Shown here piece by piece: positions 25,596 to 62,479 of a stretch of 64,000 nucleotides of DNA; within the stretch, counting starts at the first letter, position 1; each line of letters begins with the position of its first letter. The position numbers and the translations under genes are program-made. The DNA lies in the NCBI RefSeq assembly GCF_002113885.1, contig NW_018405596.1, forward strand, positions 745,718 to 809,717, written 5' to 3'. This DNA comes from Mizuhopecten yessoensis (taxonomy: Eukaryota). The notes below the pieces were generated by a model. It did not search any database, was not told the origin of the DNA, and saw only the letters and a list, made by a program, of their open reading frames with translations.

Positions 25596-25686
25596 TTAAT
25601 TCATTCACCCCTGTAGACACATTTGAACTCTTCCAAATCAAAAGTTGGAAAAGTTCATTATGAAATTTCAGGGGTGAATGAGTTAA
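25596..25686 (+). mobile_element. TTAA-flanked 83-bp hairpin MITE, subfamily A
   Basis: ttaa-ttcattcacccctg...caggggtgaatgag-ttaa. Confidence 0.9.
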
Positions 25687-26571
25687 TATACAGTTTTTAA
25701 GGATCCTTTGTTTGAAGTCCCCGCAAGATATATTTTTAATTGCTTATATCTTTCTCTATGGTAAAATAAATGCACAACAAACCCAAGGAGCCTTAGAAAA
25801 ATCTATTCATTTTCAATAAACGTGATCAAATATATCAAAAGTTTCCTCGATTGTGACGATCTAAATGGCCTCCCTGAAATTGAAGACCTTGTCAGAATGG
25901 TATGTTAAATTGCATAATGACTGATGTCTGAGAACTACGGAATCATTGGTCTAAATGTGTCTCGCATAGTAAATATGTGACCTGGGGAAAATGACTGTCC
26001 AATTAGTTTATGAATGTACCTGTGTGTAGTTGTGTAATAAAGTACACAGAGGAAAAGTAATAACTGCAGGCTACTTCGCCTAAACTGATTGAATTTGTAG
26101 TTTACTAAGATAATTTATATATCATATCATTCATTAAATTTGTGCACAACAAGTAACAATTGGTAATTGTGTCTGTAATCTACTTACAGATCTGTCAATG
26201 AATTCTTTAAAATTCAACCTACGCTACCTCTTGTGTGGTATTTTGAAATATGACAACATCGACGGTCTACAATATTAAATATATTCGTATACAGAGGTAT
26301 ATGAACACATTGAAATAAGAACTTAATTTCAAGGATGGAGAAAAATACTTGACACAGTTTATTACTTATTGTAATTTAATTCTTATTTATGGACATTTTT
26401 TCTCTCTCATTTTTTTGTCCAATGTGTTGTGAAGTAGACGAGTCACATCCGAGGCTTTACACCATTACGCTAGCTCATATATACCATAACTCATAGTCCA
26501 CTCCAAAAGCCTAAAAAATGGCATTGAGGAATGATGCTGGTTATGCTGAGATGTAATACTTTGAATTAAAC

Positions 26572-26662
26572 TTAACCCTTTCACCACTTTAGACTATAAT
26601 GGACTCATCCATATCAATGCATGGTAGAGTCTACGAGAGTTACATAGGGGTGAAAGGGTTAA
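26572..26662 (+). mobile_element. TTAA hairpin MITE, subfamily B
   Basis: ttaa-ccctttcacc...ggtgaaaggg-ttaa; 91 bp; aligns without gaps to subfamily A. Confidence 0.85.
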
Positions 26663-26909
26663 AGTGGTACAATTCTGTTATTGTTACTAAATATCTGTGG
26701 TGAGGGGAAATAGTTCAGCCTTCAGCGGGCAAAGTGTCAATCCCAGGGATTTGATCATGATTGCAGGACCTCTTGATTATAAAACACGAAATTTATCCGC
26801 TGGACTTGCAGCATCATTTTTGTAGTATAAATACGTGTATTGTTTTTAACCAAATTAAGAAAAGTTGAAAAAAAGTTCTTACTCTTGCAGACTATGATTG
26901 TCTTTGTAT

Positions 26910-27003
26910 TGTAGGGAAACTGGACTGGTAGCTAAATTAGTAGAGCGTCCGTCTAGAGTTTGGAGGGTTCCGGGATCGAATCCTTGTCTGGCCATTGCAT
27001 TTT
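26910..27003 (+). mobile_element. tRNA-promoter element starting TG (solo-LTR/TRIM-like family)
   Basis: tgtagggaaactggactgg, then A box tagctaaattagtagagc and B-box-like gggatcgaatcc. Confidence 0.65.
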
Positions 27004-27262
27004 AGAGAAATTAACACAAGTTCGCTGAATAATAACTCCACAGTGACTGTACGTAGTAGAAAAAATAAAACTATTTGAAAGGACATCAGATACATTTGAT
27101 CAGCGATATGGAGCGTGGATTACAGATTAAAACCAACAATACAATATCATACAAAATTAACGTTCATTATATTCAATATATTTCAACTGAATATCATGAA
27201 TATAACATAATAAAATAAAATGACTGATCTAACAGGGTGCCTTATTAAGGTAACATGTATAC

Positions 27263-27350
27263 TTACCTCATACAACCCTGAAGACACATTTGAACTCTTC
27301 CAATTCAAAGGTTGGACAAGTTTATATGGAACTTCAGGGGTGAATGAACA
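27263..27350 (+). mobile_element. TTAA hairpin MITE, subfamily A (degenerate ends)
   Basis: ccctgaagacacatttgaactcttccaattcaaaggttgg...caggggtgaatga. Confidence 0.85.
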
Positions 27351-28683
27351 AACTTGTGCTCATTGAAAAGTTCACCAGTTTACCGGTATTTATGAAATTT
27401 CTTAAGTGATTAAAGGAAGTGAAGGAGTGTGAGAATATAATCTGATTTCTCACAGTTTTTGAGCAATTCAGTACATTGCAGTTTTATTTTTACATTAGAA
27501 TAATATGTTAACGACAAAACGAGCATTTGCAATTTTTTGTAACATGTTAATGAATATATCATGCAATGGTATATAGCTGTGTTGGAGGCTATTACGATAA
27601 CTTTTAATCTATACATGTCGGTTTGACGTACTTGAGGGATTGCAGGACCGGTCTTTAGAAATTACAACTCAAGAGTGCAGACTTCCAGGTTTATCAGAGA
27701 GTATTTAAACAAGATGGGAAATGAATGAGACGAGCGTTTTTCGGTGTTAATAAGCATGCACCTGTGTTTAACATGTTTGAAGTCCCGTTTAAGTAAAAAA
27801 GACAAACTTCGACCTTTTCTTTCAGAGGAATGTTGACACTGAGCTGTACGGCATGTTCCAATTGAAAATAGTAAATTTCCCCAGCAGATTTCACAGCAGT
27901 ATGACGTCTGATTAAATTTCTCTAACAAATTCCAGATATATATGTAATAAATATTTACTCTTTATTAAATTTAATGGGGTTTAAGCGTCTCTTAGGTTGT
28001 ATATGTTTTTTGTGTAAAATTTGTTACATAAAACTGCTGAGAGTTATCAAGCGCAGAAAGTTTTATAAGGGTGTACCTCAGCTGCAAAAAAAATCAACTG
28101 ATAAGAGTATTTGACTGCTTAAGTCTATATAACTATTGAGGGCAGATGGCTCTTGTAACCGATTCAATAGAATATGATTTGTTAACTGTTTCTATCAACA
28201 CATTTGAGGGGTAAAATTTTGGCAGGAATTTTCATTTCTATCTCGTGTTGCTTCTAAAATGCTGATATGAAAGAATATAAAAATAAATTTTGATATGGTT
28301 AATAAATTCTGGGAGAATTAAAACATGATGTGAAATAAATGTGTAAATTTATTGTGTACTACCATATTGAAAAAAATAATAACCCAACAGGGAAAGTGTC
28401 ATACTGTATTTATGAGTCTATAATTGCACTAGCTCTTGCTGTGTATGACCATTGATAAGCCCATGTCTAATAGTAAGCCGTCCTACTTATGTGAAACTAT
28501 TCACATTCATGTGCTTATATTTTGTGGATATCAGAAACTTGCTTTTTTGGTTGGGACATGAAAGTTGTTCCAAAGATCTAACTTTCAACATGAAAATAAT
28601 TCTTGTGCGAGATGTTTTACCTTTGCACTGCATTGCATGCATGGTCACGTAATTTTGAAGAACATAATAGAATCTTGGATTTA

Positions 28684-28774
28684 TTAACCCATTCACCCCT
28701 GAAATTTCTGAATGAACTATTCCAACCTTTGAATTGGATGAGTTCAAATGTGTCTTCAGGGGTGAATGAGTTAA
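28684..28774 (-). mobile_element. TTAA hairpin MITE, subfamily A
   Basis: Full length with both TTAA flanks. Confidence 0.92.
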
Positions 28775-29998
28775 GCAGATTTTACACTTACATTGTATGT
28801 TATTTCCGATACCAAACCCTTTCTGTATTAACAGGTTCAAATAAGGGGATTTGGATGAGGGTTAAATGGTTACCATGGGGTTATAATTAATCTTCGCAGT
28901 AATTAAGTATGCAAGGTCATGATGAAGCTTTATCGTAGGTAAATTAAGTTTTTATAAGCAGGTCAATTTTAATTATTAATCAAGTTTAATTCTACCATAG
29001 AAATGAAAATTTATTTCTCTTTAAGCTGACTTAATAACACCTTACTTTGTAAATAATCAGTGTGCTTAAGGTCAAATACAGTCATGTTAATTATGTAAAG
29101 TGCAAATTTTAAAATGGAAAGAGGAAGTCTAAAATAAAAGGAAAGGACAGGAAAAGGAAGTTAAATGTTGAGAACATGAGATTTAGAGAAGCGCGAAGGT
29201 TTTGAGACCTTCAGGGAAAGTAAACCCATAGTAAAAGGTAAAGTCTTGAGAATACAGGCAGCTTTTAACTTTGGTCTTGGTTTTCCCTCGGAGACAGGTA
29301 TAACTTACCTGGTAATGGTTCTTTGCAGACAGGTATGACTTAACAGATAATATAGTTTTCTGACAGAGACAGCTGTTTGATCAAAAGTTGAGTTACACCT
29401 TTAACTTTTGGACAATAACTGTTTGTACATGTATGTAACACAGATAAACATTGTCTGTTGGGAAGTGAACAACTATGCAAGCCTTTGTCCCCTTTATTTA
29501 AACTGTTGAGCGACAGTTGCTGTCTGTAAGCCAAAGTAAAGCTAGCAAATTCCATAGAGGTGCAGTCATACATTGATCTGGGGATAGTTTTGGATGGTTG
29601 TCATACAGACAGTAGCTGAAAGATTTAGGCAGCACAGCAACTCTATAAGCCCTTCAAAACCAATTTATGTTATATCTATCTGGATTTTTTTATTTTTTTT
29701 TGGTTTTAGCAACCTATGTTTATTATCTGTTTTCTAAGGCTAATGGTTAATATATATACATAAGAATTAACCTTCATTTTGACGGCGTATACAGTAGTAT
29801 GAACGCAGTTTAAAACGAACATATTCTATAGTGCGCGTTAGGAAGAGATGTTAATATAATTGTATAAACAGGGGTGAAAACATTAAGGTGGTTGTGTAAC
29901 CCAAAATTGAATGATCTCTTGGGTTAAACAAGCGGCATGTCTCCCTCTAAATCTGTCAATAACTGTTGCCTTAATTGCACTCCCCTGGTCCATGGATC

Positions 29999-30089
29999 TT
30001 AATTCATTCACATCTATATATCTAAACTAGACTTTCCCAGTCTTTGATTTGGTAAGGTTTAAATGTGACTTTAGGGGTGCATGGGTTAA
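29999..30089 (-). mobile_element. TTAA hairpin MITE, subfamily C
   Basis: Internal cccagtctttgatttggtaaggtttaaatgtgactttaggggtg; 91 bp. Confidence 0.85.
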
Positions 30090-31808
30090 GGTTTAGCAAA
30101 GCGTCTGTTTTCACCTGATGCTGGCCATGGTGATGCAAGGGGGTTCAGGCTATTAGTTTTGCTGCCTGCTTCAGCGAGGCCTGCATGATGTGGGGTATCA
30201 CATAAGGACTGCCTGTCTGAACCAGTCAGGGGGGGGGGATTAATTGCAAGTGTACAGCCTTATCTACCTATGTGCTAAGTCTGTGGAGAGACAAACTTCA
30301 ACTTCATTTACATGCTTGATTAATTTACTAGGTGTGTTTTATGGTAGATTTTCTAGGCTCTATTGTCTTATCAGAGATTTAGGAGTAAATGATGGGAAAA
30401 TGCTGGTTTAAGGATCCATGTGCCATGTATCGGAGACTTAATCCTAGTCCTGACTTTGTAGGGGAAGAAAGTGTTTTAAGGATGCATGTCTTTTTTTTTT
30501 TTTTTTTTTTAAAGAGCCTCTAAAACCTTAACAATAGGGAGGTGTTGTATTTTATTCAAAATATAATATCGATCAAATTTTTATTATGAACAAGTAACAT
30601 ATACATAAGATTGAATCTTGATTGGCTCATTTAAGGGAGCAATATGTCTGTCTCACGGAAATATCTTCAGAATATATATCTGTTGAATGCAACCATGTGG
30701 AAGTCCAGTAGCGTCAATTGACAAATTAATCTGTCTTTAGATTAGGATAATCTTCATCTGTCCAATCTGTTTTAAAGACGGGATAGACTTAAACCCATTT
30801 ATGGGCTTATCATTGGTAAATAGGGGGTAGATAGGGTAAATTTCATCTATCTTAGTTGTGGGTCATGTTAAATGTTATTTCTGTATTTGAAATGAGAAAA
30901 GAGTGGTTAACTATTAAACAATTATGAACACTTCAGGCTTTTTCGGTCCTTCCTTAATATTCATTTGAAATTTTAAATGTTTTAGAAAATATCAGATACA
31001 CGCCCTTAAAGCGCCAAGCATTTCATTTTATGACATAGGTACTTTCTAGTTTCGTGTGATGGTTATAAAAAAAATATTTCTTCTGCTTCTCATTTAGTGT
31101 AGAGTTTCATTGTCTAGAAATTACCAGCAGGCATTCGCTAGGTATACTCACCTCTATAAAAACAGTGTCCTGGATTTGTTAAGGTTTCATTTGAAGCAAT
31201 ATATGTTTCAGTAAGTCATGACCTGTCCGTATAAATTTATACAATATACATCCCTAAGCAAATCTTTATAGATTCCTCGGCCGATTAATCTAGGATTTTA
31301 CTCGACCAATAGGTTTAGGTGGGGTTTAACATTGTTATAGACTTACAGTACATAGTCAAGGAGATTATAGCAGGTCTTAGTTATTACAGAGAGAGCAATG
31401 GACCAAAAGAAGTCAAAAGTTAGCCAACACTCTTATATATATATACATATTATCTATATCTACCGAGCACACTGTACATCAATTTAAATGAATTTGTGTT
31501 AATTTACATACATTATATACCGGAGGCTCCTGCCTGTACATACAGCCCTATAATTAGCATGTTTTATGCATGAGTGCAGCGTTTCTTGCAGGCTTTTGTC
31601 GACGGCAAAAATTACATGTATTTGCTTCAAGGATTAAAGCCTAACATTTAATGCACCATGCAATGCATTCTCAATTTACTACAATGTTGAACAATCTTGT
31701 TATTTTGTATAAATAAAAAGTTAATGCACCGTGCAGTGTAAGCTTCATTTATAACAATGTTGTACATTCTCGTTACTTTGTATAAACAATGTCGCAATGT
31801 TTACGTCA

Positions 31809-31858
31809 AAGCCCAGGTAAACACAGGTCATCGAAGCCCAGGTAAACACAGGTCATCG
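31809..31858. repeat. Exact 25-bp tandem duplication
   Basis: aagcccaggtaaacacaggtcatcg x2; an older ~73-bp duplication lies just upstream (~31648-31786). Confidence 0.85.
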
Positions 31859-32317
31859 TTACATGCACATGCACTGCATGCTGTGTTCGTTTGTTTTGCT
31901 ATTTTCTTATCCCTTTGATCACTGCTTGTGAAACATGCATACTTTAGGATCGTAAAAAAGGTATATAAAAATCAGTAACCGGTTGTTTAGATCGAGGGAA
32001 ATCGTAACATCCTAATTCAGAAATGATAGCCGTACATGTATGTTTAATCCCCCTTGCAAAAACAGAACAATGTTACATTTAAAAGGAGTTTTTGGTGTTC
32101 GTGACAAAACATTGGAGATAAACAAGTTGTACAAGTATTCAATTATCTGTTAACTTTCATGACCAAATAAGGACCTTTCTCCAGATACCTAAAATGTTCT
32201 TAAGGTAGGGAGCTCGAGTCCCTGAGTGCTTGTGTTATTACTATGTCTTGCAACTACAAAAAATGACAAAATAAATTGTAGAGGTTTCCTGTAATTTCAA
32301 ACTCACACTGTTGAGGT

Positions 32318-32408
32318 TTAACTCATCTACCCTTGAAGACACAATTGAACTCTTCCAATTCAAAGGTTGGAATAGTTCACTATAAAATTTCAGGGGTGAA
32401 TGAGTTAA
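32318..32408 (+). mobile_element. TTAA hairpin MITE, subfamily A
   Basis: Full length with TTAA on both sides. Confidence 0.92.
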
Positions 32409-32716
32409 GTAGCAGAGTCTCCATATTTTGGAAGGGAACTCTCAATGTTTTATCCATATTTTTAAATGCAAACTTTACCAGTACAGTTGTGTTTCTGTGC
32501 TAAGCACTGACTGTTTTCGCAAACATTTTCATCGGTTCAAAAAAGACGGCAATAGAAACAACACTTATTGGCAGAATGCATAGCCTAACCATTGATAAAA
32601 CTTGCTAACATGAAGAATTGAAGATCCTTAAAAAACATGACAATTATTGACCAGTCAGAGCTGTCTGCGCAGAAGTGATTCTGTTCTGTTTAAACATATA
32701 TACAGACCAGCATTAA

Positions 32717-32807
32717 CTAACTCATTCACCCCTGAGATTTTATAATGAACTATTGCAACCGTTGAATTGGGAGAGTTCAAATGAGTGTTCAGGGGTGAAT
32801 GAGTTAA
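32717..32807 (-). mobile_element. TTAA hairpin MITE, subfamily A
   Basis: Full length. Confidence 0.9.
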
Positions 32808-32918
32808 AACAACGTAAGGAATTAACATGAAATATTTGGCTTTCTGGTTGACTATTTTTTCCCTATTTCTTCTTTATTGTAAAATATGAGAGGGTGACGA
32901 GTATTGGGGGAACTTAAT

Positions 32919-33009
32919 TTAACTCATTCACCACTGAATCTTTATAATGCACTAATCCAACCTACGAATTGGAAGAGTTCAAATGTGTCTTCAGAGGTGA
33001 ATGAGTTAA
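32919..33009 (-). mobile_element. TTAA hairpin MITE, subfamily A
   Basis: Full length with TTAA on both sides. Confidence 0.9.
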
Positions 33010-34688
33010 AGAAGGAAGACACAATTGATTTAGTGTTTTATCTTGAAATAAATAAGTATGAATACAATGAAATTTTATTTCAAAATATTTCCAAGACTAA
33101 ATTATTTAGCCTACACATACATTACTTATTAGATATGAACTCATTTGTTGATGTCTAAGTAGGGATCTTAGGAAGATGTCTCATCGCTATGCGACGCCTC
33201 GAAATAAGCAGTAAATAAGCAATATGTCTGTGCGAATATGTTGAATCATTACAAAGCCCTAATTGACTCCGGGTCAAGGGGATGCTTGCAACTAACCTGA
33301 AAAAAGTGTGGGAAAGGAAGAGGGCCCTTGAACAAATTAAGATAGCGGTTGATACCTGGACACACTAGGTACTTGTAGTACTAGTGGGATAACAACATGC
33401 CCAAACATCACTTAATTGGCCACATTTGTACTACTGTATTACCGCACAGTGGACCCAGTAGGTCCATGTGTAATTGAGAAATTTTCTCTCAAGTGGGCAA
33501 CCGGATCAAGAATGTTCAAGTACATTTTGACTTCACATTCTTAAAATTTCTGTTTCTAGACCTACGTTGCTGTTCATTGTGACAGAATGATTACCAGTAT
33601 GAATAAAAAATATAAAGCAATACAGTAATTGAAGAGACGCTAAAACAAAAGAAAAGCCAACATAATTGCCTAGTCAGTGAAAAAACCTAAAAATTATAAC
33701 ATCAAATTAATTGGTTACTTTTCTTGAAAAGAAACGAAATAAATATTCAGTGTGGGTATCTAGTGCAATGCATTGAAAATTCAAGGGTGAATGAGTTCAA
33801 GTTGGTTCACCAATAAATATTTGGGTCCAATTTGTTCCAAGTGTTGTCAGTTTAGTTAATCATTAAGGAATCATTTTTAAATGTGATTTTTGATAAGTTT
33901 CTATAACAAATTACATATATTTTGATGTCTTCTGTCTAAAAGATAGCAGTGTGAATTCCTATACAGTAAATTTTAGTTTTGAACTTCATTATTTTGTACA
34001 TAAACTATATAGGAAGTTTGCGATAAGTTATCATTAAGTTGAGCAAACTCTTAAAAAGAGTATTACATGCATTTGTCACTTGTTTGTACACGATATATTC
34101 ATCTTCTCTTTCTGCATATATTGTCGCAAAAATAACAGGATAATGTTAATTACACATACATTTGGCGCTATGTAATTTATAACTCAAGTACACTATAGTT
34201 CTAGTGGTAATCCTTTGTTGATTTTTTAAATTCTGAAATAGTTGTTTTAAGCCCTTTTCCCTCATTGGTTATACATGTTATTAGGGCTGTAATGGTAGGA
34301 TAAAGGATGTCTTTTTAGTTTTATGACCACACATATCACTCAACCTAATGGAGGCAGCATTAGCTTATGTAATAGTTAATTGCTGTGCAGAATGGGCAGG
34401 GCTAGTTTAGAGCTGCTAACAGTCTCTGACAGTGTTGTCTGCATTGAAGCTGGAGAAATTACGGTGTAGATATTGCCTATCAATCAAATGCTACACATGT
34501 TGTCCAACTCGGACACAAAATATTAATCAAAATTGCATACTTTCTGGTATCTTTTTCCATCTTTTCTGTCGGAATCCAAATTGCTTCCTTGTGTTACTGT
34601 CATAAAATATTATAGATACATTTTGATCATTGTGGCATTCAAAGCGTTCAGAATTATTGACCGTGTGTCCCAGCAACAACAAATGCTA

Positions 34689-34779
34689 TTAACTCATTTA
34701 CCCCTGAAGACACATTTGAACTCTTCCAGATCAAAGGTTGGAATAGTTCATTATGAAATTTCAGTGGTGAATGAGTTAT
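34689..34779 (+). mobile_element. TTAA hairpin MITE, subfamily A
   Basis: Full length. Confidence 0.9.
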
Positions 34780-35469
34780 TAGTCTTTGATTTTTCTCCCA
34801 GATAAGAAAAGAACTGTTGCTGTTATAGACAGAAATGGAACAAAAGATATGATGCAAGTTAACATATAAATAAATGACAGATCGTATCATGACTTGGAAA
34901 TCTCATTGTGTCGGGACTGAAGTATCAATCTAATTATTGTCAATTTTGTATGATTTTGAACTACAAACCACAAATGACTGGAACTAGATCACATACGTTA
35001 CGTACAGTGTTTGAATATATGGCCGTTTATAAATATAGAATATCAGAGTTTTCCAGATTTTTGAAATGCCTGTTATAGAAAATATTATCAGACTTTTGAT
35101 GATAGACTGTTCAGGTTTTGAAATCATCGAAAGTTGATCTTTATGTTAAAGTAAGCTCAGCTTGTCGGTCAATTTTAAAAAATAACTTCAGAAAAGGCAC
35201 TCATGTCTTTGGTAGATTTTTAAAATTATATTTAACCCCAACTGATTTCAGCATATGTAAGAAAGCAACTAAAACCCCTCTTTTGGAAGTCAAGGTAATT
35301 TCTGCTAATTGATAATATTTTGTCTTAATTTCATCTTCAACTTTGTGTGAGCTTGTTGGAAATCAATGAGTATTTTCTGCTAATTGATAATATTTCGTCT
35401 TTATTTCTAATTGCATGAACAGCATATGCATGTATGTTGTAATATTTTACAATGTGTATGTTGTAGTAT

Positions 35470-47799: not shown

Positions 47800-47890
47800 T
47801 TAACTCATTAATCCCTGAACTTCCATAATGAACTATTCCAACCTTTGAATTGGATGAGTTCCAATGTGTCTTCAGGGGTGAATAAGTAAT
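47800..47890 (-). mobile_element. TTAA hairpin MITE, subfamily A
   Basis: Full length with a degenerate right end. Confidence 0.88.
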
Positions 47891-50351: not shown

Positions 50352-50810
50352 TTTGAGTTCCCATTGTTTGGCCCCATTGTTTGATTTCCCCTTGTTTGCC
50401 CTCGTTTTTTTGAGTTCCCCTTGTTTGGCCTCGTAGTTTAAGTAACCCCATGTTTGACCTTGTTGTTTGAGTTACCCCTTGTTTTTTGAGTTCCCCTTGT
50501 TTGGCCTCGTTGGTTGAGTTACCCCTTGTTTTTTGAGTTCCCCATGTTTGGCCTCGTTGTTTGAGTTACCCCTTGTTTTTTGAGTTCCCCTTGTTTGGCC
50601 TTGTTGGTTGAGTTCCCCTTGTTTGGCCTTGTTGTTTGAGTTACCCCTTGTTTGGCCCCGTTTTTGAGCTACCCTTGTTTGGCCTCGTTGTTTGAGTTAC
50701 CCCTTGTTTAGCCTCGTTGTTTGAGTTACCCCTTGTTTGACCTCATGGTTTGAGTTACCCCTTGTTTGGCCTCTGGTTTGAGTTACCCCTTGTTTGGCCT
50801 CTGGTTTGGG
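50352..50810. repeat. ~29-bp minisatellite (ttgagttaccccttgtttggcctcgttgt)
   Basis: Period 29 (50692, 50721) with interspersed shortened units. Confidence 0.93.
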
Positions 50811-52678
50811 TCACCATGATATTGTTTATCTGACATACTTATTGAGTATTAATGATGGTATGGTCAATTTGTGAAGAACAAGTTGTAAAATAAACAGTAA
50901 ACGTTTCAAGTCTGAAGATATTTTACAGACAAAACCCCAAAGTAATCATTATAAAGAATAAAAAATTCTTTGAGAATAGATAATAGCAGACCATTAAAAC
51001 CCAACCCTCATATTTGTGTTGATGATTCAGCCTATATAAACCTTTGCCAAATTTTACAGGTTTTGAGTTTGATTTTCATTGTTCTTCGGAATTTAGTCAC
51101 TGAAATAGATAGAAAATCTTGTGCATCTGTTGTGCATTTTATCCTGTTTTAAATTAAAAAGTTTGTATTTGTTTTAAAAAGTAGTCTCCATTTCAATTAA
51201 AGTAAGTATGATTTGAAAATAAGCAAACAGTCATGCACATCTAGGGTGGGTAAAAAGTGTACAGGAGTTATACCCTAACCCTATAACCCTATCATGGGGA
51301 TGAAAATTAATTTGTCTGCATTTTGATTCCTTTTTATATAGAGTGTGTTGGCTGCAATAATGAAATTTGTTATGTTGTTATTGGTGCACCGTCTTACAAC
51401 ATTTTAACCTGCTACAGAACAAAATCTCATTGATAAATTGCCATCTGTGGTTAAAAAAAGTATTTAATCGAATTTAAAAAGCTTGGCAACGGCCACCTAG
51501 AGACAGTAAATGCGGAAACTACTTGAAATTTCTACTTTTACAACTCTGATTTTAAACAATTAGACTTATTGGCCTCACTAAAGTGCATTCAGCGCAATTA
51601 TGTTCATGAGTTGCCGGAGTATTTGGAAATCCAAATAAACAATGCTGTGGTAGAACGGAAGTCGGGGTATAATTGTAAAAGCAGGTGGAAACGCCTTTCT
51701 GTGTAAAGTACAGAGTATTATAGAATAGGGAAGGTTTGTATATAGATCTTACTGATGAGTTCATGCACATCCCAAATAGACGTAACTTCTGAACGTCTGG
51801 TCAGCTTTAACAAAGATTAACGGAGATTTGAATGAAGTTATTTCTTCAAATAGCATTCTATAATTTTTAACATAATATAAATTCTGGGATTTCTGTTGAT
51901 CATATGAAGGTAAAATGCTTGAAAATTCACACAAATACAAGTGGATGAGCTACGAAGAGGACAAGTTGACCATACCTGGATTGTGTGGGGTCATGGATGC
52001 ACTGCAGTGTTGATGTGGGGTCTATAGATATGATGTATGGTAGACCTGATTTATGTCAGGGTTGTAGTTGGACTGATATACAGGGAGTAGCCTGGTGTAG
52101 ATAATATACTGTACAATGTAATGCAGCAACCCCTACTTGTGGAGAATGCATAAATTGGGCATGTTCTTATACCGTGGAACACACTTATAATGATATCGTT
52201 TATTATGATATTTTTCCCATGTACCGATTTTTTCCTTCTTTAACTTCGTTAGCAAAAATAATCAAGGAAGTGCTAAAAAATTACAATCGATAAACTGATA
52301 AAATAATGGGTTTGTAAAAACATGTTTCACTGCATATGGTAGGAAGAGAACCTCTAGTGCTAAGGGCTTAAGGTTATATGATACTTTGAACATTTTAAGT
52401 TTAATTTGTATTAGAGTTATCTCCCTTTAACATGGTTTATTTTATCAAACAATGCTCCATTTCTAATGACAATAAGGTTTTTCATCACCAATACACTATG
52501 GAGATTCTAAAAGTGGACATTGACCAGGGATTCTTCTGCTTAAATATCATTTCGGCTACTTAATTCTCTGATAAATGCTTTAAAACAAGATAGATTGTTA
52601 AGAAGGACCTTTATTAAAAAAAATAGGTAAAAATGAAAGCAGATTAAGACGCTTTGATATCCAATAATTTTTCCCAAA

Positions 52679-52769
52679 TTAAATCCTTCACCCCTGAAAT
52701 TTCATAATGAACTAGTCCAACCTTTGAACTGGAGGAGTTCAAATGTGTCTTCAGGGGTGAATGAGTTAA
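52679..52769 (-). mobile_element. TTAA hairpin MITE, subfamily A
   Basis: Full length. Confidence 0.9.
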
Positions 52770-53268
52770 GGAAGATGGCGACTCTCAAAATATCCACCAA
52801 AACACTGACAGCTTTCTTGGTGCTACAATAGATCCATTGTTCCATTGTTATAGAATGGTTTGCTGGCCTGGGTGTTGTAAAATACATCTGTATTGTTCCA
52901 GGTAGAGAGGATGCTGTATCACCAACACAATGCAAGCAGTACAGGAAGATGCCTAAATCTGTTCAGCATGTAGGGCATGATTTATAGCCATCCTTGCAGT
53001 ATGTCTAGTTGATGTACTACGAGGGAGAAGAACCATAGGTTATACATTATATGCATATTCTACATGTATTTACACAGGCTGAAGATCAGCACATAACTAC
53101 CAAAATAAAAGTACAGATGTACGGAGACTGAAAACGACAAAAATTGACGAGCTATCAAAACAGCTTTGTTAATGATGTAGTGAAAGATTCATTGGAAAAA
53201 ACATGAAATCAGACTTTCCTTTTCACCTGCTGTTGTTCCCTCAGATACTGGAAAAAAGTTGGCTCGGT

Positions 53269-53359
53269 TTACCTCCCTCACCCATGAAGATGCATTTGAA
53301 CTGTTCCAATTCAAATGTTGGACTAGTTCATTATGAAATTTCAGGGGTGAATGAATTAA
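53269..53359 (+). mobile_element. TTAA hairpin MITE, subfamily A (diverged)
   Basis: Full length. Confidence 0.87.
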
Positions 53360-53931
53360 TCAAGTTTCATAAGGATAACAGTAATGACACAGCAAAGCTG
53401 TATGAACTTTCACTTTATGTTTCACTTTCCAGATAATTCATGTTGTCTTCCTGTTTGTTTTGGTAAAGATCTGCTTTTCACCTCCCAATGCATCTATTTC
53501 CATGACCCTTTCAACCTTTAAGTACTAATCATCAAAACTAGAAATGCTACACAATTCAAGCCATAGGCAATATTGTTTTCTGTCATGAGGCCCTTCATTT
53601 TCTCTTTATTTTCTTAAAAGACCACATTATTTGTCCTAAGAATTCTGTAATTCAATTTACAGCCTTAAACAGTAGGTGTATCTAATTAGTTCTAGATATT
53701 GTGAGGGAACTCTTTTCTTTTCTTCCTAAACGCTAATCACATGACTTTTACAGCCATTTTGTACTCCGTGACCTCTGAAATAATTTAGATGCACATAACC
53801 TAACATTACGGCAAACATATAAAGGACTTTGTGTCAAAGGATCATTGTTACGTCTCATAACTCGAATTTAGGATTTCCATACAGATCTGCCTTTATCATT
53901 CAGTGTTATTCTTATGCAGATAATTTCAAAA

Positions 53932-54022
53932 TCAAACCTTTCACTCCTATGTAACTTTAGTAGACTCTACCATGTGTTTATGGGGGTTAGTCCTTTATGG
54001 TCTACGGTGGTGAAAGGGTTAA
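53932..54022 (-). mobile_element. TTAA hairpin MITE, subfamily B
   Basis: Reverse complement of 26572-26662 (tatgtaact...tagactctaccatg...ggtgaaaggg-ttaa). Confidence 0.85.
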
Positions 54023-54210
54023 CATATATAGCTAGATACATCTAAGATTGATGGTGGTGGTTAAATGATTATGGATGTGTTCATGGGAAACCCCCTGACC
54101 AAGGAAATGATCTGAAGAGTGGCTTATAAACAAAAAGATCGCTGTCCTTTATGCACTATAGTTTTTCTAATATTACAGTAACTTCTCCTCCATTTTGTTT
54201 TGAATATAAC

Positions 54211-54482
54211 TGTAGCAGATTTATACGGGCCAGGACACTTCCAATGACCATGTGTAGCTCAGTCGGTTGGAGTAGTAGTATACTCTGAATTCTAGGGTTT
54301 GAATGGGGTCAAACCAGTTCCCAATGACTAATATTTTAGTGGGTTGGAACAGTAGTGCTACAATATTAAGGCCAGGGTTGGAGCAGTAGTGCTACAATAT
54401 TAAGGCCAGGGTTGGAGCAGTTAAGTGCTACAATATTAAGGCCAGGGTTGGAATCTTTGTCTAGCCACACTACCTTGTTATA
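54211..54482 (+). mobile_element. tRNA-promoter element (TG start) with an internal 33-bp triplication
   Basis: tgtagcaga..., A box tagctcagtcggttggag, then gggttggagcagtagtgctacaatattaaggcca x3, ends cttgttata. Confidence 0.6.
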
Positions 54483-55031
54483 TTCAGAACACTGTTGTTG
54501 ATTATGTTTTGTTTATTTCATCTTAATTATTTTTCATAAAAATCCTGCAAGTTATGGTTTTCTTTACAGAAACGATTTATCAAAGCTATAGTCATCCGGG
54601 AAAAAAACAGTTCTCAATACTTAGTTAAGAGTTTTTGCCGGTGGAAGGTGGATCCTTGAAGGAGACAAATGCTAGCAACGAGTGAAACTTTGTACAAGTA
54701 GGATAATGAATTGGCCTAGCTAACACCTATATTATATACAGAGTTAGGTTGGGGAGTGATAACATTTGATATATGACTGTAATCGCCGATGGTACATTAC
54801 TCTCACACACAGGTGTCATTGAACTAAGTTAGTGCTGCGCTGCTGCAATTGTGAAATCCATTGAAAAGATTTTTCATTTTTTTTAGCTTCATTATAGTTC
54901 TTATTCAAGAAATTGTGAAATATTCTTGTATGTCATAATGTCTATAAGTAGATGTTTTCATTTCAAAATATTTTATTAAAACAATCAGATTTAATAGGAA
55001 TTGGGCATATTAGAGGTCATTGTTTCTCATC

Positions 55032-55122
55032 TTAACTCATTTACCCCTGAAATTTCATAATGAACTATTCCAACCTTTGAATTGGAAGAGTTCAAATGTG
55101 TCTTCAGGGGTGAATGAGTTAA
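55032..55122 (-). mobile_element. TTAA hairpin MITE, subfamily A (near consensus)
   Basis: Full length with TTAA on both sides. Confidence 0.93.
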
Positions 55123-55936
55123 TATCTTCCCGATTATATTTTCTTTGTCTTGGTGGGTTTATCGTTTTTCTAATAGAGATTTTCTTTGCTCGTCTCTCCT
55201 TGTATCTGTTTTAGCTTATACTGATACACAAATTATCTTCCGTACTTTTTATGTATTAGTCAGCTTGTATAACTGATGGATTCCTGTTTTTGTATCTCGG
55301 TCAGTTTTTATAGAACAATTTCTATATGGTTCTCATGGAGTCATAAATAGTTGATCCTGCTCCGAGTGTGACCCTTTATGTAGCTGAACATTTCAGTCGA
55401 CACCCAGGCAGTCATCATGTCGCTCCAACACATGGAGGAGGTCGAAGGTCGTGATGAGGGATAAAGAGTCTGGTTGATATACATGTGATTACAATTGTGG
55501 TACAGTTAGGGGAATGACGTAACACAATAACTGTCAGAACCGATATACTTCGGAGTAGGAACATCATATTCATAGTGTCTGTACCATTGTTTCACCCACT
55601 GTGTAGGCTGATGAACAGGTTTACTTGTACTGTCCAAGTGGCAAAAACATTTTTAGGGAAGAAAATTATATAAATCAAGAGTGCAATTTCTGTGTTCCAA
55701 AATATTTCAAAAGTTGTGTAGTTTTCAAAGAAATGCCATTCATTGAAATAAAAATGTTATTTCACAAAGAAAATCCAAAATGTTGCACAAAAAACTTGAA
55801 AATACTAGTAAGGTGCAAAACATCGACTCCAAAGTTTGGGGGTGAATTTGGCGGGGACAGAGAATTGGTGTATCTGGGTAAATGAGATATCAAACTATAT
55901 TTATGCAGAATCCTTTTTAAATTGTCCGATCTGTAG

Positions 55937-56027
55937 TTAACGTATTCACCCCTGAAGACACATTTGAACTCTTCCAATTCAAAGGTTGGAATAGTTCATT
56001 ATGAAACTTTAGGGGTGAATGAGTCTA
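55937..56027 (+). mobile_element. TTAA hairpin MITE, subfamily A
   Basis: Full length. Confidence 0.9.
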
Positions 56028-58056
56028 CAGAAGTGTCTTAGATACATTGAATATTTTAGATAAACCTTTAAAACGGAAACATATCTAGTGGTGCTGATAT
56101 TTATTGGGGCCTAAAGATAATCTTTCATGAAGTGTTGGAGTCACAAGCTTGAGAAGGCTTCTGTAAAGACATCCTTTTAGAAAAATGGCTGCATGGGGTG
56201 ATAAAAATACTTAGACGTGCAACATTTCTGAAGTTATTACAGCTCTTTAAGCTTTAAGTCTTTAAGAAATGTATGAAGAATTCATGGAATATTTAACAAG
56301 TTTACAAATTACTGAAATACTTCCCGAAATAATCTCCCAGGCACGTGTAGAAAGCTGCATCCTGTAGATTTGGTAGTACGAGTATATAAGTATAGATTTG
56401 ATCTTTATTATACACCTGACCTGGATACCCAGAAATAATCGGCACATTCTGTTTCAATTTTCAGCACTTGATTAAAGATGTTTCCTCTTTGTTGGGTAGT
56501 ATCAGTAAGGCAGTGGATCAAACACTATTCATCAATGGAAAAAAATCTTAACAATTATTGGGGATCGTCATCTTTTGAAGTCTGTAGGAGCTATGTATAT
56601 TAGGCTAATTAAGAAAGTACCACAAGTTTTTTTGTAATATTGTAGAGTGCTTGAAGTTTTATTATGTATTTTGTTGCCTGTTTCTAATACAGTAGGTCAG
56701 TTACTGTAAATATAACTTGTGCGTGTATCACCAATAAACAGTAAATGATTATTTGATTTTGGTAATGCCACTTGGCTCCTTTCTGCTCTCTAGCGATTCA
56801 TTCAGTTTGATCAGGTATTGAATGAAGATTTTCTCTTTTCTTTCTAGTAACTAAGCGACTTTTCTATTAATTGTTGCATTATTTATCTTGTGCTTGGTCC
56901 TGTAATTTGCTTCAAGTAGATTTTTTGTTTCAAACAAGTTCAAAAGTCTTAGAAACATTGTATTTACTGCATCTTATGCACGTCATACGTAAACAGGAAA
57001 TTTAGGGTGAATACGTAAGTGGAATTCAAAATATGACATAAATTAGATCAAATTAGCCACAAATTTATGCCATAGAATAATTTATCATTCATACTACATG
57101 TCATATTAATTTCAATGAAAGCACTATATCGGGAGATGTAATTTAGAAATTCAGAATCCAAATTTAATCAAATTGGCAATAACGTTTATGACCTTGAAGT
57201 TTATTTTTTATTTTTCTGACTCCCATCTGCTGTACCACATTGTGTTAAACGTTAGGCTGACCTCATCGATGCCTAAATAAGGAAGTATGGCAGTTTTTAC
57301 CCCTCCCTATGTACAGGAAACAAGTGGTGTGTTATATTGACCCTGGGAAAGTGAACTGGGGCGTGCTTCAGGGTCGATTGAAACCATGACTCTATGCAGT
57401 TATTGCCAATCGTCTGTTGTTCTCATCACTGTGGCACATACCACACACAAAAGCTTGCTTCGTCATCACAATCAGGGTCAGCTGATTATGTCATACCCTA
57501 ACTTAAACCATCATAGGATGCAAACATCTTGAAGACCTAGATTTGGCAGGCAGATGGCATGGAAACTCATTTTAAGCATAGAGCATCATGTGAAAGTTGG
57601 TGTCCCTGAAGTATTGTTTCTTTGTCACGTATGATGATTCAGTTGGTAGCAAGATTGAGATATTTCATGACTTTGACCGATTTCCAAACAATGCATTTTT
57701 CTCCGACCTAAATTACACTGATCTTTACACATGTTTGTAACAAGTAGAATGGTAGATCATTTTACATGATTTATTTTCATTTAGCTCTGATGAAATGCAT
57801 ATCTGCTTAATATGTCCTGATGAGGCATTTATAAAAATGGATTTTAAACCGTTTGAAAGTTAACTGAAAGTTTATCCTGGTAGCAATAAGTACAAGTTTG
57901 GAAGATGGACTTAAATTGTAAACTCAATGAGAATGTCAATGATTTTGTATTACAGACTATTTTACAGTTGGGTCAGCTAAGGTGAACCACTAATCGGCAT
58001 CTACATGTCATTATAAATTCACCTAAAGGAGATTCCAGGAGTTAAAAATAGGATTG

Positions 58057-58585
58057 ATTCTACACCCAATCCTTACTTTACCCATAGGACCAATTCCACA
58101 CCCAATCCTTATTTTACCCATAGGACCAATTCCACACCCAATCCTTACTTTACCCATAGGACCAATTCCACACCCAATCCTTACTTTACCCGTAGGACCA
58201 ATTCTACACCCAATCCTTACTTTACCCGTAGGACCAATTCTACACCCAATCCTTACTTTACCCATAGGACCAATTCTACACCCAATCCTTACTTTACCCA
58301 TAGGACCAATTCCACACCAAATCCTTACTTTACCCATAGGACCAATTCCACACCAAATCCTTACTTTACCCATAGGACCAATTCTACACCCAATCCTTTC
58401 TTTAATCATAGGACCAATTCTACACCCAATCCTTTCTTTACCCGTAGGACCAATTCTACACCCAATCCTTACTTTACCCATAGGACCAATTCCACACCCA
58501 ATCCTTACTTTACCCATAGGACCAATTCCACACCAAATCCTTACTTTACCCATAGGACCAATTCCACACACAATCCTTACTTTAC
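58057..58585. repeat. 36-bp minisatellite (att(c/t)acacccaatccttactttacccataggacca-type), ~14.7 copies
   Basis: Period 36; source of the HPILTLPIGPI and CGIGPMGKVRI ORFs. Confidence 0.97.
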
Positions 58586-58845
58586 TAATTTTGCTTTATC
58601 TGGGAAGCGTAAATGCTCAGAATCAAAATGAGAGTTGAATATATAGCAAAAGGACATAACTCAATGCTACTCAAAGCGTTAGTTTCTATATATAACAGAG
58701 AATGCTCAAATAAATAAACAGCTTCTAAGTGGAAATTTTCTGAGTGTATAACTGCATGGTGCAGTGGTACGCTTTACATTAAGTTTGCTGAAATCACTGC
58801 ATGAACAATTCCATTACCTGCATGAGTCTTAGCATTTGGTTGTTT

Positions 58846-58880
58846 CTGGGCCTGGGCCTGGGCCTGAACCTGGGCCTGAA
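58846..58880. repeat. (CTGGGC)n hexamer microsatellite
   Basis: ctgggcctgggcctgggcctgaacctgggcctgaa. Confidence 0.8.
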
Positions 58881-61800
58881 GAAATGAAACAGTTCTCATG
58901 CTCAAGCCTAATTTCTTGTTCCAGTTATAAAATTTCCAAAAAATATAATTTTTCAATGATTTGGAGAAAAAAAAATGAAGAGTCGACTTAAAGCGAGATA
59001 CTGTTTAAATGTTTACATTTGACTTTTTGATTGTTTTACATGATTTAGGTAAGTATCAAGAAATTTGGTTTGGGCACAGAATCCATGCTTGAGCAAAGGA
59101 TTGGTTTCATGAATATCGGCCCTGGTCTTATTAAGAAAATACACAAAAAAGAAGTGTTAGATAATGTGTTGATCAAGTTAACCACACATTGTCCCGGATC
59201 CTGTGTCCTGACAGTGTGGTATTAGTGAGGTAAACTTTCTCTGTTACCTACTTACCGGGGGATAATCTCTTAAAATATAGGTCACCTGGATTTCTATCCA
59301 TACACAGGTACACACCTGTTTTTTTGTTGTTATTTATTGGTTATATACCTGTCATTATTCAACAGGTTTGCTAATATATATATACACATAAGGCTAGGTC
59401 ATTGATCTATTACAGCAACAGGTCTGATGATCAATTTGTTGAACGTAACACAATAAAAAACATTTGTAATAATACATCTGTCAAACCAGCTCTAAACAAA
59501 AATAGGCATTGTTCTATGTGTGTGTTACAGTGATTTTGCTTTTGAACCTGGAGTTTGGAGGTGGGATAGGGAGTAGGGGAATTAGGGACTGTAAGCTTTA
59601 AAGTTTTTTTCCAGCAACCATTCTCAATATAGACAGCACTGCTTTCAAAACCAGGGGCAGCAACAGAAAATAGTTTGCCTGTATTTAAAATCTCATCTGC
59701 ATCAATCTATTCATATCTTAGGTTTGGTTTTGTCCATTTTGAAATTGAAAAAAAAAAGAAAAAAAAATCTATTTACCTAAGTTCTTAATTCCTACATAGC
59801 TATTTTTAATGAATTTACAATTTTGTACCCGGTTCTTACATGTGTTTTTAAAATTTTGAAGAAAATATATTGTGCTGAAAACTTCAGAGTCTTAGTATTT
59901 AAAAAAAAGTTTGGTCCTTATTTAGGTAGATCTGGTGACCCAGATACTATATTACTTAACCTCCGTGTATATTAATAAGTTTGTTCACCCGAGGCTGAAG
60001 TCTGAAGTTTTTTTACTTCATAAATGAAATATCTTTTTTTTTATCTCGGTATAAGGCATTGTGTCCGCCGATTGTCAGAATGATTACCATATTCATGGGC
60101 CGGCAGTGTTGAGATTTTTCGTGGCTTTGCGAACATTGAAACTGACGGACACCGAAACAGAAAATCCAGATGTTTTACACGATACTCTTGAATGACTTGT
60201 CAATCTTCACAATGGTCGCCTGTCTGTTTGAAAAGTTTAGAATTCCTTCAGTCGAAGGCTGATGACCCTTTCGTCCTTCGATGTCAAGAGGAGAAAGCCC
60301 AAACTACTGTAAACGAATATCTTCGTTGATCTTTGGGCGCGTTCTTTGTTGTTAAACAGTGTTTTTGTCCGCTAAGTATTACCTTTTTAAACCAGGTTTT
60401 GTGCTTTGTCAAACACATCTGATGGTAGATATTTAGTACAAACCAGTTGTGTGTCTGACCATTAATAGCAAATTGTTTATTGTACTTGTGCGACTTTGGC
60501 CGGTAATTTATTGCATTCAATCCTACCATCTGTTTATTGACACACCTACCTGAAAATCAATGTTTTATTTCCCGTTTTATAGATCATTACTTCCTTCACG
60601 CTTGTAAAATTTAAAATGGATTTAAATGTTTGTGGCAGATACACTTTATTATTTTATGATAATGGTTGTATTTGAAAGTGTAATTGCATGTTCTATTTTA
60701 TTATAAAAAAACAATGTGTTAGGCAATATTATTTTAATGGGTTTCCAGTTCATATGAAATGATAGAATGTCGAAAAATTTGCATTGAAGAACTTTTAATG
60801 AAAACTTTAAAATACTAGCACCTTGATTTCTAGATATTATAAAGACAATACAATGCTTACTGGTTAATCATTATTTCTTGCATCCTTCACAGGTGTGTCT
60901 CCCGTTTTAGCCGGGAGAGATCATCTTGTCACCCCTAGGGGGAGATAGCCTCATGCCGATTAATTAGCACATGTTTAATTGTGACGTCATTAAATGCGCC
61001 ACCGTAATTGTGAAGTCATCAAAAGTGATTGACGATATTCATACCCCACATGTGTTTTGTTTACAAACATGGCAGATTATCGACGGTGGAATTGTGACTG
61101 AAATGATAGGATGGGAGAAATATAATCATCCCCTACCTTGAGGGTGTGACGGAGAAATTAATCTCTCATCCAATTTATAGTATTGATCGGCAGAATATGA
61201 CTTGAACTCCCTGACATTATAAAATCTGGTTTAAATTTTTATGAATACATTTTTAGATAGGTTCTATGTTTAAACTTAATCACGGAAGATTGCCAAAGGT
61301 GCTTATTACATTTGTACATAGTAATTGTTAATAGAAAAAAAATTGAAACAGTGGTATATATTGCCAACGTGCTAATTCCCTGTGCACCTGTATTTTGATA
61401 TAGAAACTTCTCTAAAACAGAGGTCAAGAATCCGGCAGGACATATCACTATCATGTAGTGCAGTACGTTGCATGTGTAACGAATGTTAAAAAAATTGATC
61501 CGCAGAATTACAGGGTGAAACTGTCCGGAACAATTAGACTGGATCCATTATATGCTTACAGAGATCACAGGCAATTCCATTGTAGTTCAAAGTCAGCCAA
61601 TAATGTCCTTTTTAGGTGAATTGTGTTACCAGTTTTAATTAGCGTTATGTACGCGTAAGGTAAATTTGCACCTAGTGACCTGTTTTGGTAATGTATAAGA
61701 AATCCCCCCTCTGCCAGCTAGATACGTACGTGGTGCATGGCGCAGTGCCGATTCAGGTAATTTGAACAGACATGTACGTACAACATCTTGCATTAAGGGC

Positions 61801-62181
61801 ATATTTCACAAAGACGAAAAAGCATCAGTTCTATACATTTTGTGGACATTTGACCTTAAAAGATAGAAATGCAGTCATTTTTACTGTATTTTATTTAAAT
61901 CTGTATAGAATATTTACAGCTGATTTGGCGAGTGAAGTAAGTTTAGATTATAGATATGTAATACAGTGAACCTAGTGGTACCTAAACCTGTTTATTTGTT
62001 AACATCAGAGAACTCCCAGAATTACCAGATTTGACCTAATAACGAAGCACCCTTCCTCCTCATCATAACCACGTCTGTCACTATCAGGATTTCATTGCTG
62101 GTTAAAATTCTTATATTGACTATGTTGTTCATGAATTCTTCCTTTGAAGTACAAATATCCAGGACCATTTAGGACACTTGT

Positions 62182-62272
62182 TTAACTCATTCACCCCTGA
62201 AGACACATTTGAACTCTTCCAATTCAAAGATTGGAATAGTCCATTATGAAATTTCAGGGGTGAATGAGTTAA
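62182..62272 (+). mobile_element. TTAA hairpin MITE, subfamily A (near consensus)
   Basis: Perfect 20-bp terminal inverted repeat including TTAA. Confidence 0.93.
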
Positions 62273-62388
62273 GTTTACAATTCTTTATTTCAAAAGTCCT
62301 ACTTATCACAAGAATACAGTATTATTCAATAACTCATGTCATATAGTTTGTGGACAAACTGTTGAACTAGGACCTTTTGTGATACCTT

Positions 62389-62479
62389 ATAACCCATTCA
62401 CCCCTGAAGACACATTTGAACTCTTCCAATTCAAAGGTTGGAATAGTTCTTTATGAAATTTCAGGGGTCAATGAGTTAA
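62389..62479 (+). mobile_element. TTAA hairpin MITE, subfamily A
   Basis: Full length. Confidence 0.9.

What the first reader, a model, noticed from the sequence alone, without database searches (positions are those of the whole stretch)
25596..62479. Fixed-length 83-bp TTAA hairpin element in three subfamilies with covarying stems
Seen: about 20 full copies (15 A, 2 B, 3 C), nearly all 91 bp including both TTAA flanks, in both orientations. A and B align without gaps despite many substitutions. The element folds throughout: a 16-bp terminal stem, then tgaact/agttca and ttccaa/ttggaa around an 8-nt loop. Between A and the B copy at 26572, paired positions change together: ctcatt/aatgag to cccttt/aaaggg, tgAact/agtTca to tgGact/agtCta, and ccaA..Ttgg to ccaT..Atgg. 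Known: a TTAA duplication with C-pyrimidine termini is the piggyBac pattern. Inference: this is an extremely small non-autonomous piggyBac-like MITE under constraint on both length and internal symmetry, possibly from transpososome geometry. Because it sits in an intron, every copy would be transcribed as a pre-miRNA-sized hairpin.
Basis: partly seen in the sequence, partly recalled or inferred. Interest (0 to 1): 0.7.

Follow-up and report, generated by a model that had tools for sequence, protein, structure and literature searches.

The report
83-bp piggyBac miniature transposon family
This is a tiny, very abundant jumping-DNA element that inserts at TTAA and likely borrowed the enzyme of a larger piggyBac transposon; its fixed length and inner symmetry are likely requirements for jumping as DNA, not a selected RNA hairpin.

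Summary
The observation largely holds: 20 copies (15 A, 2 B, 3 C), 17 of them 91 bp with flanks, all in an 84.8-kb first intron of a collagen XV/XVIII-like gene (splice seen in RNA contigs). Genome-wide, 2,723 of 3,267 perfect-ended copies are exactly 83 bp; the family totals roughly 25,000-40,000. Paralogous empty sites hold one TTAA. A 2.6-kb piggyBac family in the same genome has ends like subfamily B's two different ends, so this is a piggyBac MITE; no exact parent was found. The hairpin reading is weak: the 13-pair inner stem is 12/13 paired in A but 9/13 in B and 8/13 in C, with 2 double-sided swaps against 9 mismatches, no copy-level covariation, and one of the three quoted swaps a minority variant. 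What is kept across subfamilies is a short motif on each arm, part of the loop, and the spacing (zero net indels where 3-4 are expected; modest support). This fits a DNA-level requirement for transposition. Coral CMITEs are a close precedent. Copies are enriched in CpG-poor DNA. New member of a known kind.

The parts
25596..25686 (+). MITE subfamily A, 83 bp plus TTAA flanks
26572..26662 (+). MITE subfamily B (carries the minority T37 variant)
27263..27352 (+). MITE A, decayed, 1-bp deletion
28684..28774 (-). MITE A
29999..30089 (-). MITE C
32318..32408 (+). MITE A
32717..32807 (-). MITE A
32919..33009 (-). MITE A
33760..33799 (+). probable decayed right arm only (weak, E about 1)
34689..34779 (+). 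MITE A
40909..40999 (+). MITE C
46300..46394 (+). MITE A with a 4-bp insertion in the left end
46577..46666 (-). MITE C, 1-bp deletion
47800..47890 (-). MITE A
52679..52769 (-). MITE A
53269..53359 (+). MITE A
53932..54022 (-). MITE B
55032..55122 (-). MITE A (1 difference from the subfamily majority)
55937..56027 (+). MITE A
62182..62272 (+). MITE A; anatomy: TTAA, 13-bp TIR (16 bp paired in A), spacer, inner motif at element positions 25-37, 8-bp loop, mirror motif 46-58, spacer, TIR, TTAA
62389..62479 (+). MITE A
22869..23592 (+). first exon of the host gene (collagen XV/XVIII / multiplexin-like), CpG-rich, ends in a short frame that reads like a signal peptide; GT donor at 23593
   Evidence: RNA contigs of X13 and X15 end here and continue into the next exon; donor and acceptor; Collagen PF01391 and Endostatin PF06482 exons downstream
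23593..64000 (+). first 40 kb of an 84.8-kb intron (acceptor at window-equivalent 108392, in L096); CpG o/e falls from about 0.9 to about 0.45 at its start; holds all 20 copies

Best explanation
This is an 83-bp non-coding, TTAA-duplicating element of three subfamilies that was likely moved by cut-and-paste by a piggyBac transposase of the clade whose decayed 2.6-kb copies lie in the same genome, and its fixed length and inner mirror motifs likely reflect what the enzyme needs on double-stranded DNA. Shown: boundaries, TTAA duplication, 13-bp TIRs, copy number, length peak, B's two arms resembling the left and right ends of that piggyBac family. Inferred: each arm is a minimal transposon end (TIR plus one subterminal motif, T-G/A-x-A-C-n4-C-C-A); the two ends must be brought together over only about 8 helical turns, so only masters that keep this spacing spread; once inserted, copies decay neutrally (6-8% from their subfamily majority). 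The hairpin that A can form in RNA is a by-product of end symmetry. Copies accumulated in CpG-poor DNA such as this intron, by insertion bias or by survival.
For: Empty paralogous sites with one TTAA for copies in L008, L012, L072; neighbours sharing one TTAA in L002, L100, L188. piggyBac family L108 (2,615 bp), L109, L110, L051 with TTAA flanks on L108 and L109, PF13843 match and best solved-structure matches to piggyBat and piggyBac transposases. B right arm vs its right end: 21 of first 26 ungapped, p<5e-5 beyond the TIR; B left 18 of first 20 vs its left end; the same right-end match recurs in a non-autonomous relative (L085) and in an intact 597-aa relative from another record (L267), whose right ends share TACC(A) at positions 34-38, matching the MITE's CCA at 35-37. 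Central 34 bp invariant across subfamilies at 19 positions vs 4 of 23 in the spacers, p=0.006, including 5 of 8 unpaired loop bases. 2,723 of 3,267 perfect-ended copies are 83 bp; the first 50 of 130 82-bp copies have scattered deletions. Indel:substitution ratio 0.073 in 213 copies predicts 3-4 indels among subfamilies; net change is zero, P 0.016-0.047. No excess of double-sided changes in copies (7 seen, 7.3 expected, inner stem). T. ni piggyBac ends carry a subterminal repeat bound by the transposase (PMC7351741 passages); a piggyBac-derived enzyme imposes a 10-bp length periodicity on short substrates (PMC3464196 passages).
Against: No autonomous element with an exact TIR match to A, B or C among about 90 piggyBac loci examined (11-12 of 13 bases at best); all four G000 copies of the best-matching family are broken. 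B-left similarity beyond the TIR is not significant over the whole arm (p=0.07), and A/C left arms resemble a different family, L045 (p=3.5e-4, about 0.05 after 132 comparisons). The length argument rests on only three lineages, and deletion variants may simply post-date transposase extinction. Pairing is kept slightly more than a random-mutation null in B (9 vs 6.2, p=0.041; C 8 vs 6.2, p=0.15). No binding or transposition assay was possible.
Confidence: 0.72

Rival explanations
1. Same piggyBac MITE, but length and inner symmetry are unconstrained history: three masters descend from one palindromic founder and by chance took no net indel; the conserved core is what had not yet mutated.
For: Only three lineages; P(no indel) of 0.016-0.047 falls to roughly 0.06-0.12 if the genome-wide rate (17% of perfect-ended copies changed in length) is used instead; MITE families are generally uniform in size (PMC2872659 text).
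Against: Core vs spacer conservation 19/34 vs 4/23 (p=0.006); best A-B alignment has compensating gaps that restore spacing; 42 strongly shorter or longer perfect-ended variants did not amplify.
Confidence: 0.17
2. One reading: selection keeps a folded stem (DNA cruciform or single-strand hairpin during transposition, or an RNA hairpin from the intron).
For: A folds into a long hairpin (-49.6 kcal/mol RNA; inner z -4.0); two double-sided swaps (pairs 27/56, 31/52); B keeps 9 pairs vs 6.2 expected (p=0.041); cells paired 79.2% vs 76.6% shuffled (a measure inflated by relatedness); family reads are plentiful in RNA-seq.
Against: Nine mismatched states among subfamilies; C's predicted + strand fold does not form the inner stem; pairs with a change on both sides 9 vs 12.0 in shuffles (499 of 500 at least as high); inner-stem positions mutate as fast as unpaired ones in copies (Fisher p 0.26, 0.20, 0.74); orientation in the host gene 29 + vs 30 -; no Rfam family.
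Confidence: 0.08
3. The 13-8-13 centre is a tyrosine-recombinase (lox-like) site of a Crypton-type element.
For: In A the centre is a 13-bp inverted repeat around an asymmetric 8-bp spacer (sequence; likeness to lox/FRT is recalled).
Against: Centre is only 8-9 of 13 symmetric in B and C; TTAA is a true duplication; ends match DDE piggyBac elements. The genome was not searched for Crypton recombinases.
Confidence: 0.02

Closest known systems
CMITE, coral piggyBac MITEs (Wang et al. 2010, PMC2872659; parts 1-3 of 4 of the text read, figures not seen)
   Same: About 100 bp, homogeneous size, TTAA duplication, 13-14 bp C-Y-start TIRs that differ between families, interior conserved across families, one family tied to an autonomous piggyBac, a copy in an intron; authors suggest the interior matters for transposition.
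   Different: CMITEs are 96-108 bp, about 1,600 copies, with a 75-bp near-invariant interior and tandem arrays; here 83 bp, tens of thousands of copies, interiors 24-39% diverged with only a mirror motif and spacing kept. No likeness by eye to the printed CMITE interior consensus.
Trichoplusia ni piggyBac ends LE35/RE63 (PMC7351741, PMC5381638 passages)
   Same: 13-bp TIR followed by subterminal transposase-binding sequence; asymmetric left and right ends; TTAA.
   Different: The two minimal ends total 98 bp, more than this whole element; the MITE stops before the second internal repeat that its candidate partner carries (right end 40-57).
Paramecium IES excision by PiggyMac (PMC3464196 passages)
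   Same: A piggyBac-family enzyme acting on substrates below the DNA persistence length, with length held to helical phase.
   Different: IESs are unique-sequence, TA-bounded, somatically excised by a domesticated enzyme; here only one length peak is seen, so periodicity is not shown.
G000 piggyBac family L108/L109/L110/L051 and relative L267
   Same: TIR 11-12 of 13 identical; B's asymmetric subterminal sequences match left and right ends.
   Different: 2.6 kb, encode a transposase (broken in G000, intact in L267), carry duplicated subterminal repeats; not an exact parent.

Membership tests
piggyBac-superfamily MITE | Inserts at TTAA and duplicates it | tested here: met
   Empty paralogous sites with a single TTAA for L008, L012, L072; both flanks intact in 85 of 150 ungapped copies.
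piggyBac-superfamily MITE | TIR of about 12-19 bp starting C[CAT][CAT] (PMC5381638) | tested here: met
   13-bp TIR CYCWTTCACCMCT; 13, 12 and 12 of 13 pairs in A, B, C.
piggyBac-superfamily MITE | Small, non-coding, uniform in size, high copy | tested here: met
   2,723 of 3,267 perfect-ended copies are 83 bp; 16 copies in 391 kb of evenly spaced stretches.
piggyBac-superfamily MITE | Ends shared with a transposase-coding piggyBac | tested here: met
   B arms vs L108 family ends; transposase PF13843 E 4e-74, piggyBat E 5e-40. Related, not identical, TIRs.
piggyBac-superfamily MITE | Exact cognate autonomous element for each subfamily | tested here: inconclusive
   None among about 90 piggyBac loci fetched from 123 PF13843 matches; search scored 116 of 260 candidates.
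piggyBac-superfamily MITE | Mobilised in trans by the transposase | not testable with these tools
   Needs a cell or in vitro assay.
CMITE (coral) | About 102 bp with the conserved 75-bp CMITE interior | tested here: not met
   83 bp; no likeness by eye to the consensus printed in PMC2872659; no alignment was run.
Structured RNA / pre-miRNA family | Covariation that preserves the inner stem | tested here: not met
   2 double-sided swaps vs 9 mismatches; no excess; weak contrary signal p=0.041 in B. Low power: three lineages.
Structured RNA / pre-miRNA family | Match to a known RNA family | tested here: not met
   No Rfam hit on any copy at gathering score.
Structured RNA / pre-miRNA family | Processed 21-24 nt reads or editing | not testable with these tools
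   No small-RNA run among the 20 listed; RNA reads on the copies are almost all from paralogues.
Kolobok / T2-MITE | TTAA target with purine-purine 5' termini (recalled) | tested here: not met
   Termini are C-pyrimidine in all three subfamilies.
Crypton (tyrosine recombinase) | Ends or core shared with a recombinase-coding element | not tested
   Genome not searched for recombinases; one paper search gave nothing specific.

The most novel reading that the evidence does not exclude
The family is a natural helical-phase experiment: 83 bp (about 8 DNA turns) is the shortest in-phase loop that this piggyBac clade can synapse, three independent master lineages were pinned to it, even through compensating indels, and the conserved mirror motif plus loop is the binding or bending site that lets a sub-persistence-length element out-compete its 2.6-kb parent thousands-fold, with a bias into CpG-poor gene bodies. 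It would define a piggyBac donor smaller than the known minimal T. ni ends, testable with the intact relative L267.
Probability: 0.3. Interest if true: 0.6.

Novelty: new member of a known kind. Interest (0 to 1): 0.32.

Why it matters
As a family it is ordinary: a piggyBac MITE with a close precedent. Its value is as a test case. The coral CMITE paper left open why tiny piggyBac MITEs keep their interior; here three lineages, a candidate partner clade and an intact relative make 'spacing and motif' versus 'hairpin' directly testable, and bear on how short a piggyBac donor can be, which matters for vector design. With tens of thousands of copies concentrated in CpG-poor introns, the family is also a likely source of false pre-miRNA predictions and a marker of gene-body domains in this genome.

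Tried and rejected
Empty sites in other individuals: contigs of DNA runs X4 and X6 (two studies) run into the copies at 26572, 28684, 32318, 32919 and 34689, so those are shared; no 87-bp skip among the 15 joints shown, 494 not shown, table swamped by paralogues: inconclusive. Pfam scan of 149 of 166 window frames of 58 aa or more found no host exon; the gene was found from neighbouring stretches and RNA contigs. MITE pattern in metagenome contigs: 0. Atlas look-up of the TSPN/LamG-like exon gave no result; Pfam and PDB support for that exon is weak (E 0.027, 0.09). Idea that position 19-20 of A is a decayed CpG: 3 CG and 2 TG of 97, like background; dropped. MITE interior (23-62) searched in L108: no significant local match. 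A fourth subfamily: none among 235 copies not picked by a query or in the listed pattern hits. Ends of the 70%-identical fragment L124 were not found. Protein tree (18 of 19 rows, L054 left out) does not group L051 closely with L045 or L042/L043, so similar TIRs do not mark a tight clade. CpG enrichment did not replicate in tiles picked around piggyBac genes (4 copies in 86 low tiles vs 3 in 110, p=0.70). A recalled '55-bp minimum spacer' for piggyBac was not found in the library and is not used. R-scape, Repbase and Dfam were not available. Earlier-finding look-ups by place and sequence were empty.
Full report
Observation. A profile built from nine window copies finds 20 end-to-end copies between 25596 and 62479 and one weak half copy at 33760-33799. 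The window is G000:C2269:745718-809717 in an animal genome of 988 Mb. No call established the host taxon; a mollusc was my untested guess for the literature searches.

Genome-wide. A strict pattern for both ends finds 3,225 places with an inner gap of 42-72, 31 with 11-41 and 11 with 73-103; the reversed control finds 0. 2,723 of these 3,267 are exactly 83 bp; 130 are 82 bp, and the 50 listed have deletions at scattered places. The 31 short and 11 long forms are private deletions, duplications or nested copies, apart from two near-identical sets that may be assembly duplicates. Forty 10-kb stretches taken at even steps in large contigs hold 16 copies in 391 kb (bootstrap 12,000-75,000 genome-wide); the strict pattern catches 7 of 58 unselected copies, giving about 27,000. 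The window is therefore some 13-fold denser than average. Among 235 copies not picked by a query (145 A, 69 B, 21 C), 213 are end-to-end and 154 of those are 83 bp; divergence from the subfamily majority is 5.9%, 7.5% and 7.8% (some stretches were chosen near known copies). No fourth subfamily appeared.

Target site. Removing a copy and one TTAA in the script restores the uninterrupted unit of other repeats for copies in L008, L012 and L072, so TTAA is a duplication. Some copies sit in the TTAA of a neighbour. Both flanks are intact in 85 of 150 ungapped copies. Two other individuals share the five window copies that could be judged in both; polymorphism was not shown.

Partner. PF13843 gives 123 matches in G000. 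Of about 90 loci fetched around them, one family has ends like the MITE: L108 (2,615 bp), L109 (2,584 bp), L110 and the 5'-truncated L051, 90-96% identical, all broken. Its transposase matches piggyBat (E 5e-40) and T. ni piggyBac (E 3e-29). B's right arm matches its right end at 21 of the first 26 bases and, with one gap, on to position 37 (p<5e-5 beyond the TIR); B's left arm matches its left end at 18 of 20 (whole arm p=0.07). A 1-kb non-autonomous relative (L085-L087) and an intact 597-aa relative from another record (L267, 69% identical) share right-end features, including TACC(A) at 34-38, where the MITE has CCA at 35-37; B-right scores p=0.0005, 0.0065 and 0.01 against the three. The MITE ends before the second subterminal repeat of these elements. 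A and C left arms resemble instead the left end of another family, L045 (p=3.5e-4 and 0.002; borderline after 132 comparisons). No TIR matches exactly, so the clade is identified but not the parent.

Covariation. In subfamily majorities the terminal 16 pairs are 16, 13 and 14 Watson-Crick and the inner 13 pairs 12, 9 and 8. Six inner pairs never vary; among the rest there are two double-sided swaps (27/56 A-B, 31/52 B-C), one G-T and nine mismatched states. On 52 of the 150 ungapped copies, pairs with a change on both sides are 9 against 12.0 in shuffles, while the relatedness-sensitive measures exceed all 500 shuffles. The inner 51 nt folds better than shuffles only in A. What is conserved across subfamilies is sequence: TG.AC....CCA on the left arm, its mirror on the right, and 5 of 8 loop bases, 19 of 34 positions against 4 of 23 in the spacers (p=0.006). 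That is the pattern of protein-binding sites (inference).

Length. In 213 copies there are 83 indels for 1,144 substitutions; the subfamily tree is 42-57 substitutions long, so 3-4 indels are expected and none net is seen (P 0.016-0.047; about 0.06-0.12 by my arithmetic on the genome-wide length counts). The best A-B alignment has compensating gaps in both spacers, which would mean spacing was restored. 83 bp is about 8 turns of B-DNA (established value) and well under the persistence length; the Paramecium IES paper (PMC3464196, passages) ties such length constraints to loop formation by a piggyBac-derived enzyme, and the piggyBac structure paper (PMC7351741, passages) shows subterminal binding with a 40-degree bend and gives LE35/RE63 as minimal ends. 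In piggyBat, removing interior binding sites raised activity (PMC11707139, passages). These are parallels, not tests.

Context. RNA contigs from two studies (X13, X15) end at window 23592 and continue with letters found in L096; the donor is GT and the acceptor AG, giving an 84.8-kb intron that holds all 20 copies. Downstream exons match Collagen and Endostatin families: a collagen XV/XVIII-like gene on +. CpG o/e falls from about 0.9 to about 0.45 at 24 kb and stays low for over 100 kb; 41 copies lie in the low part to 124 kb and 1 in the preceding 64 kb. Loci picked for a MITE have median CpG o/e 0.42 against 0.74 (p=5e-9); evenly spaced tiles give 11 copies in 57 low tiles against 5 in 99 (p=0.019), but tiles around piggyBac genes show no difference. 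Low CpG as a sign of gene-body methylation is established knowledge, not measured here. Genic accumulation of short elements is reported for bivalve SINEs (PMC11481361, abstract). Orientation in the gene is 29 + and 30 -. Rfam has no match to the copies; RNA reads on them come from paralogues.

Prior knowledge. The coral CMITEs (PMC2872659, parts 1-3 of 4 read) already show a 100-bp, TTAA, piggyBac-linked MITE group with uniform size and a conserved interior. Eight paper searches found no description of this family; PMC5381638, PMC10294476 and PMC4132734 were read as passages only; supplements were not opened, and TE libraries deposited with PMC10294476, Repbase or Dfam may already hold it.

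Verdict. A real, abundant piggyBac MITE; new member of a known kind. The covarying-hairpin claim is mostly not borne out; a modest constraint on motifs and spacing is, and it is testable. Interest 0.32.

Noticed in passing
window about 24000 onward; G000:C2269:769700-909700: Sharp step in CpG o/e (0.9 to 0.45) at the start of intron 1 of the collagen XV/XVIII-like gene; the MITE cluster begins within 2 kb of the step and all sampled flanks of the candidate partner family are also CpG-poor on at least one side (0.2-0.5).
   Followed up: partly
L093:1848-2177 (+), inside the 84.8-kb intron: A frame reading like a second signal-peptide exon; possibly an alternative first exon of the collagen gene. 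No RNA check.
   Followed up: no
L032-L037 (six contigs): A different piggyBac family, 2,339 bp, with a 591-aa open frame and identical scores in six copies: probably young and possibly active; TIR unlike the MITE's.
   Followed up: no
L267:2445-5067 and L108:1189-3811: An intact piggyBac from another record, 69% identical in protein, has the same length between TTAAs (2,615 bp) and the same end architecture as L108; coincidence not excluded.
   Followed up: partly
L085:537-1590, L086:1501-2573, L087: A non-autonomous element of about 1.05 kb with ends of the same piggyBac clade.
   Followed up: partly
window 26922-26994 (+): Weak tRNA match (29.7 bits); similar tRNA-like heads recur in other loci, likely a tRNA-derived SINE.
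   Followed up: no
window 1-310, 8430-10500, 35300-36400, 41190-41970, 43340-44100, 50300-50800, 57940-58700: Minisatellite arrays with units of 37, 31, 42, 19-20, 49, about 28-47 and 36 bp.
   Followed up: no
L002:1501-1684, L100:4532-4709, L188:8356-8536, L216:7517-7695: Adjacent copies of different subfamilies sharing one TTAA; paired inverted copies could form longer double-stranded RNA than single copies.
   Followed up: no
-44 hits: Many short derivatives look like deletions between short internal matches of the two arms; none amplified.
   Followed up: partly
window 19342-20258: A 917-base run of N.
   Followed up: no
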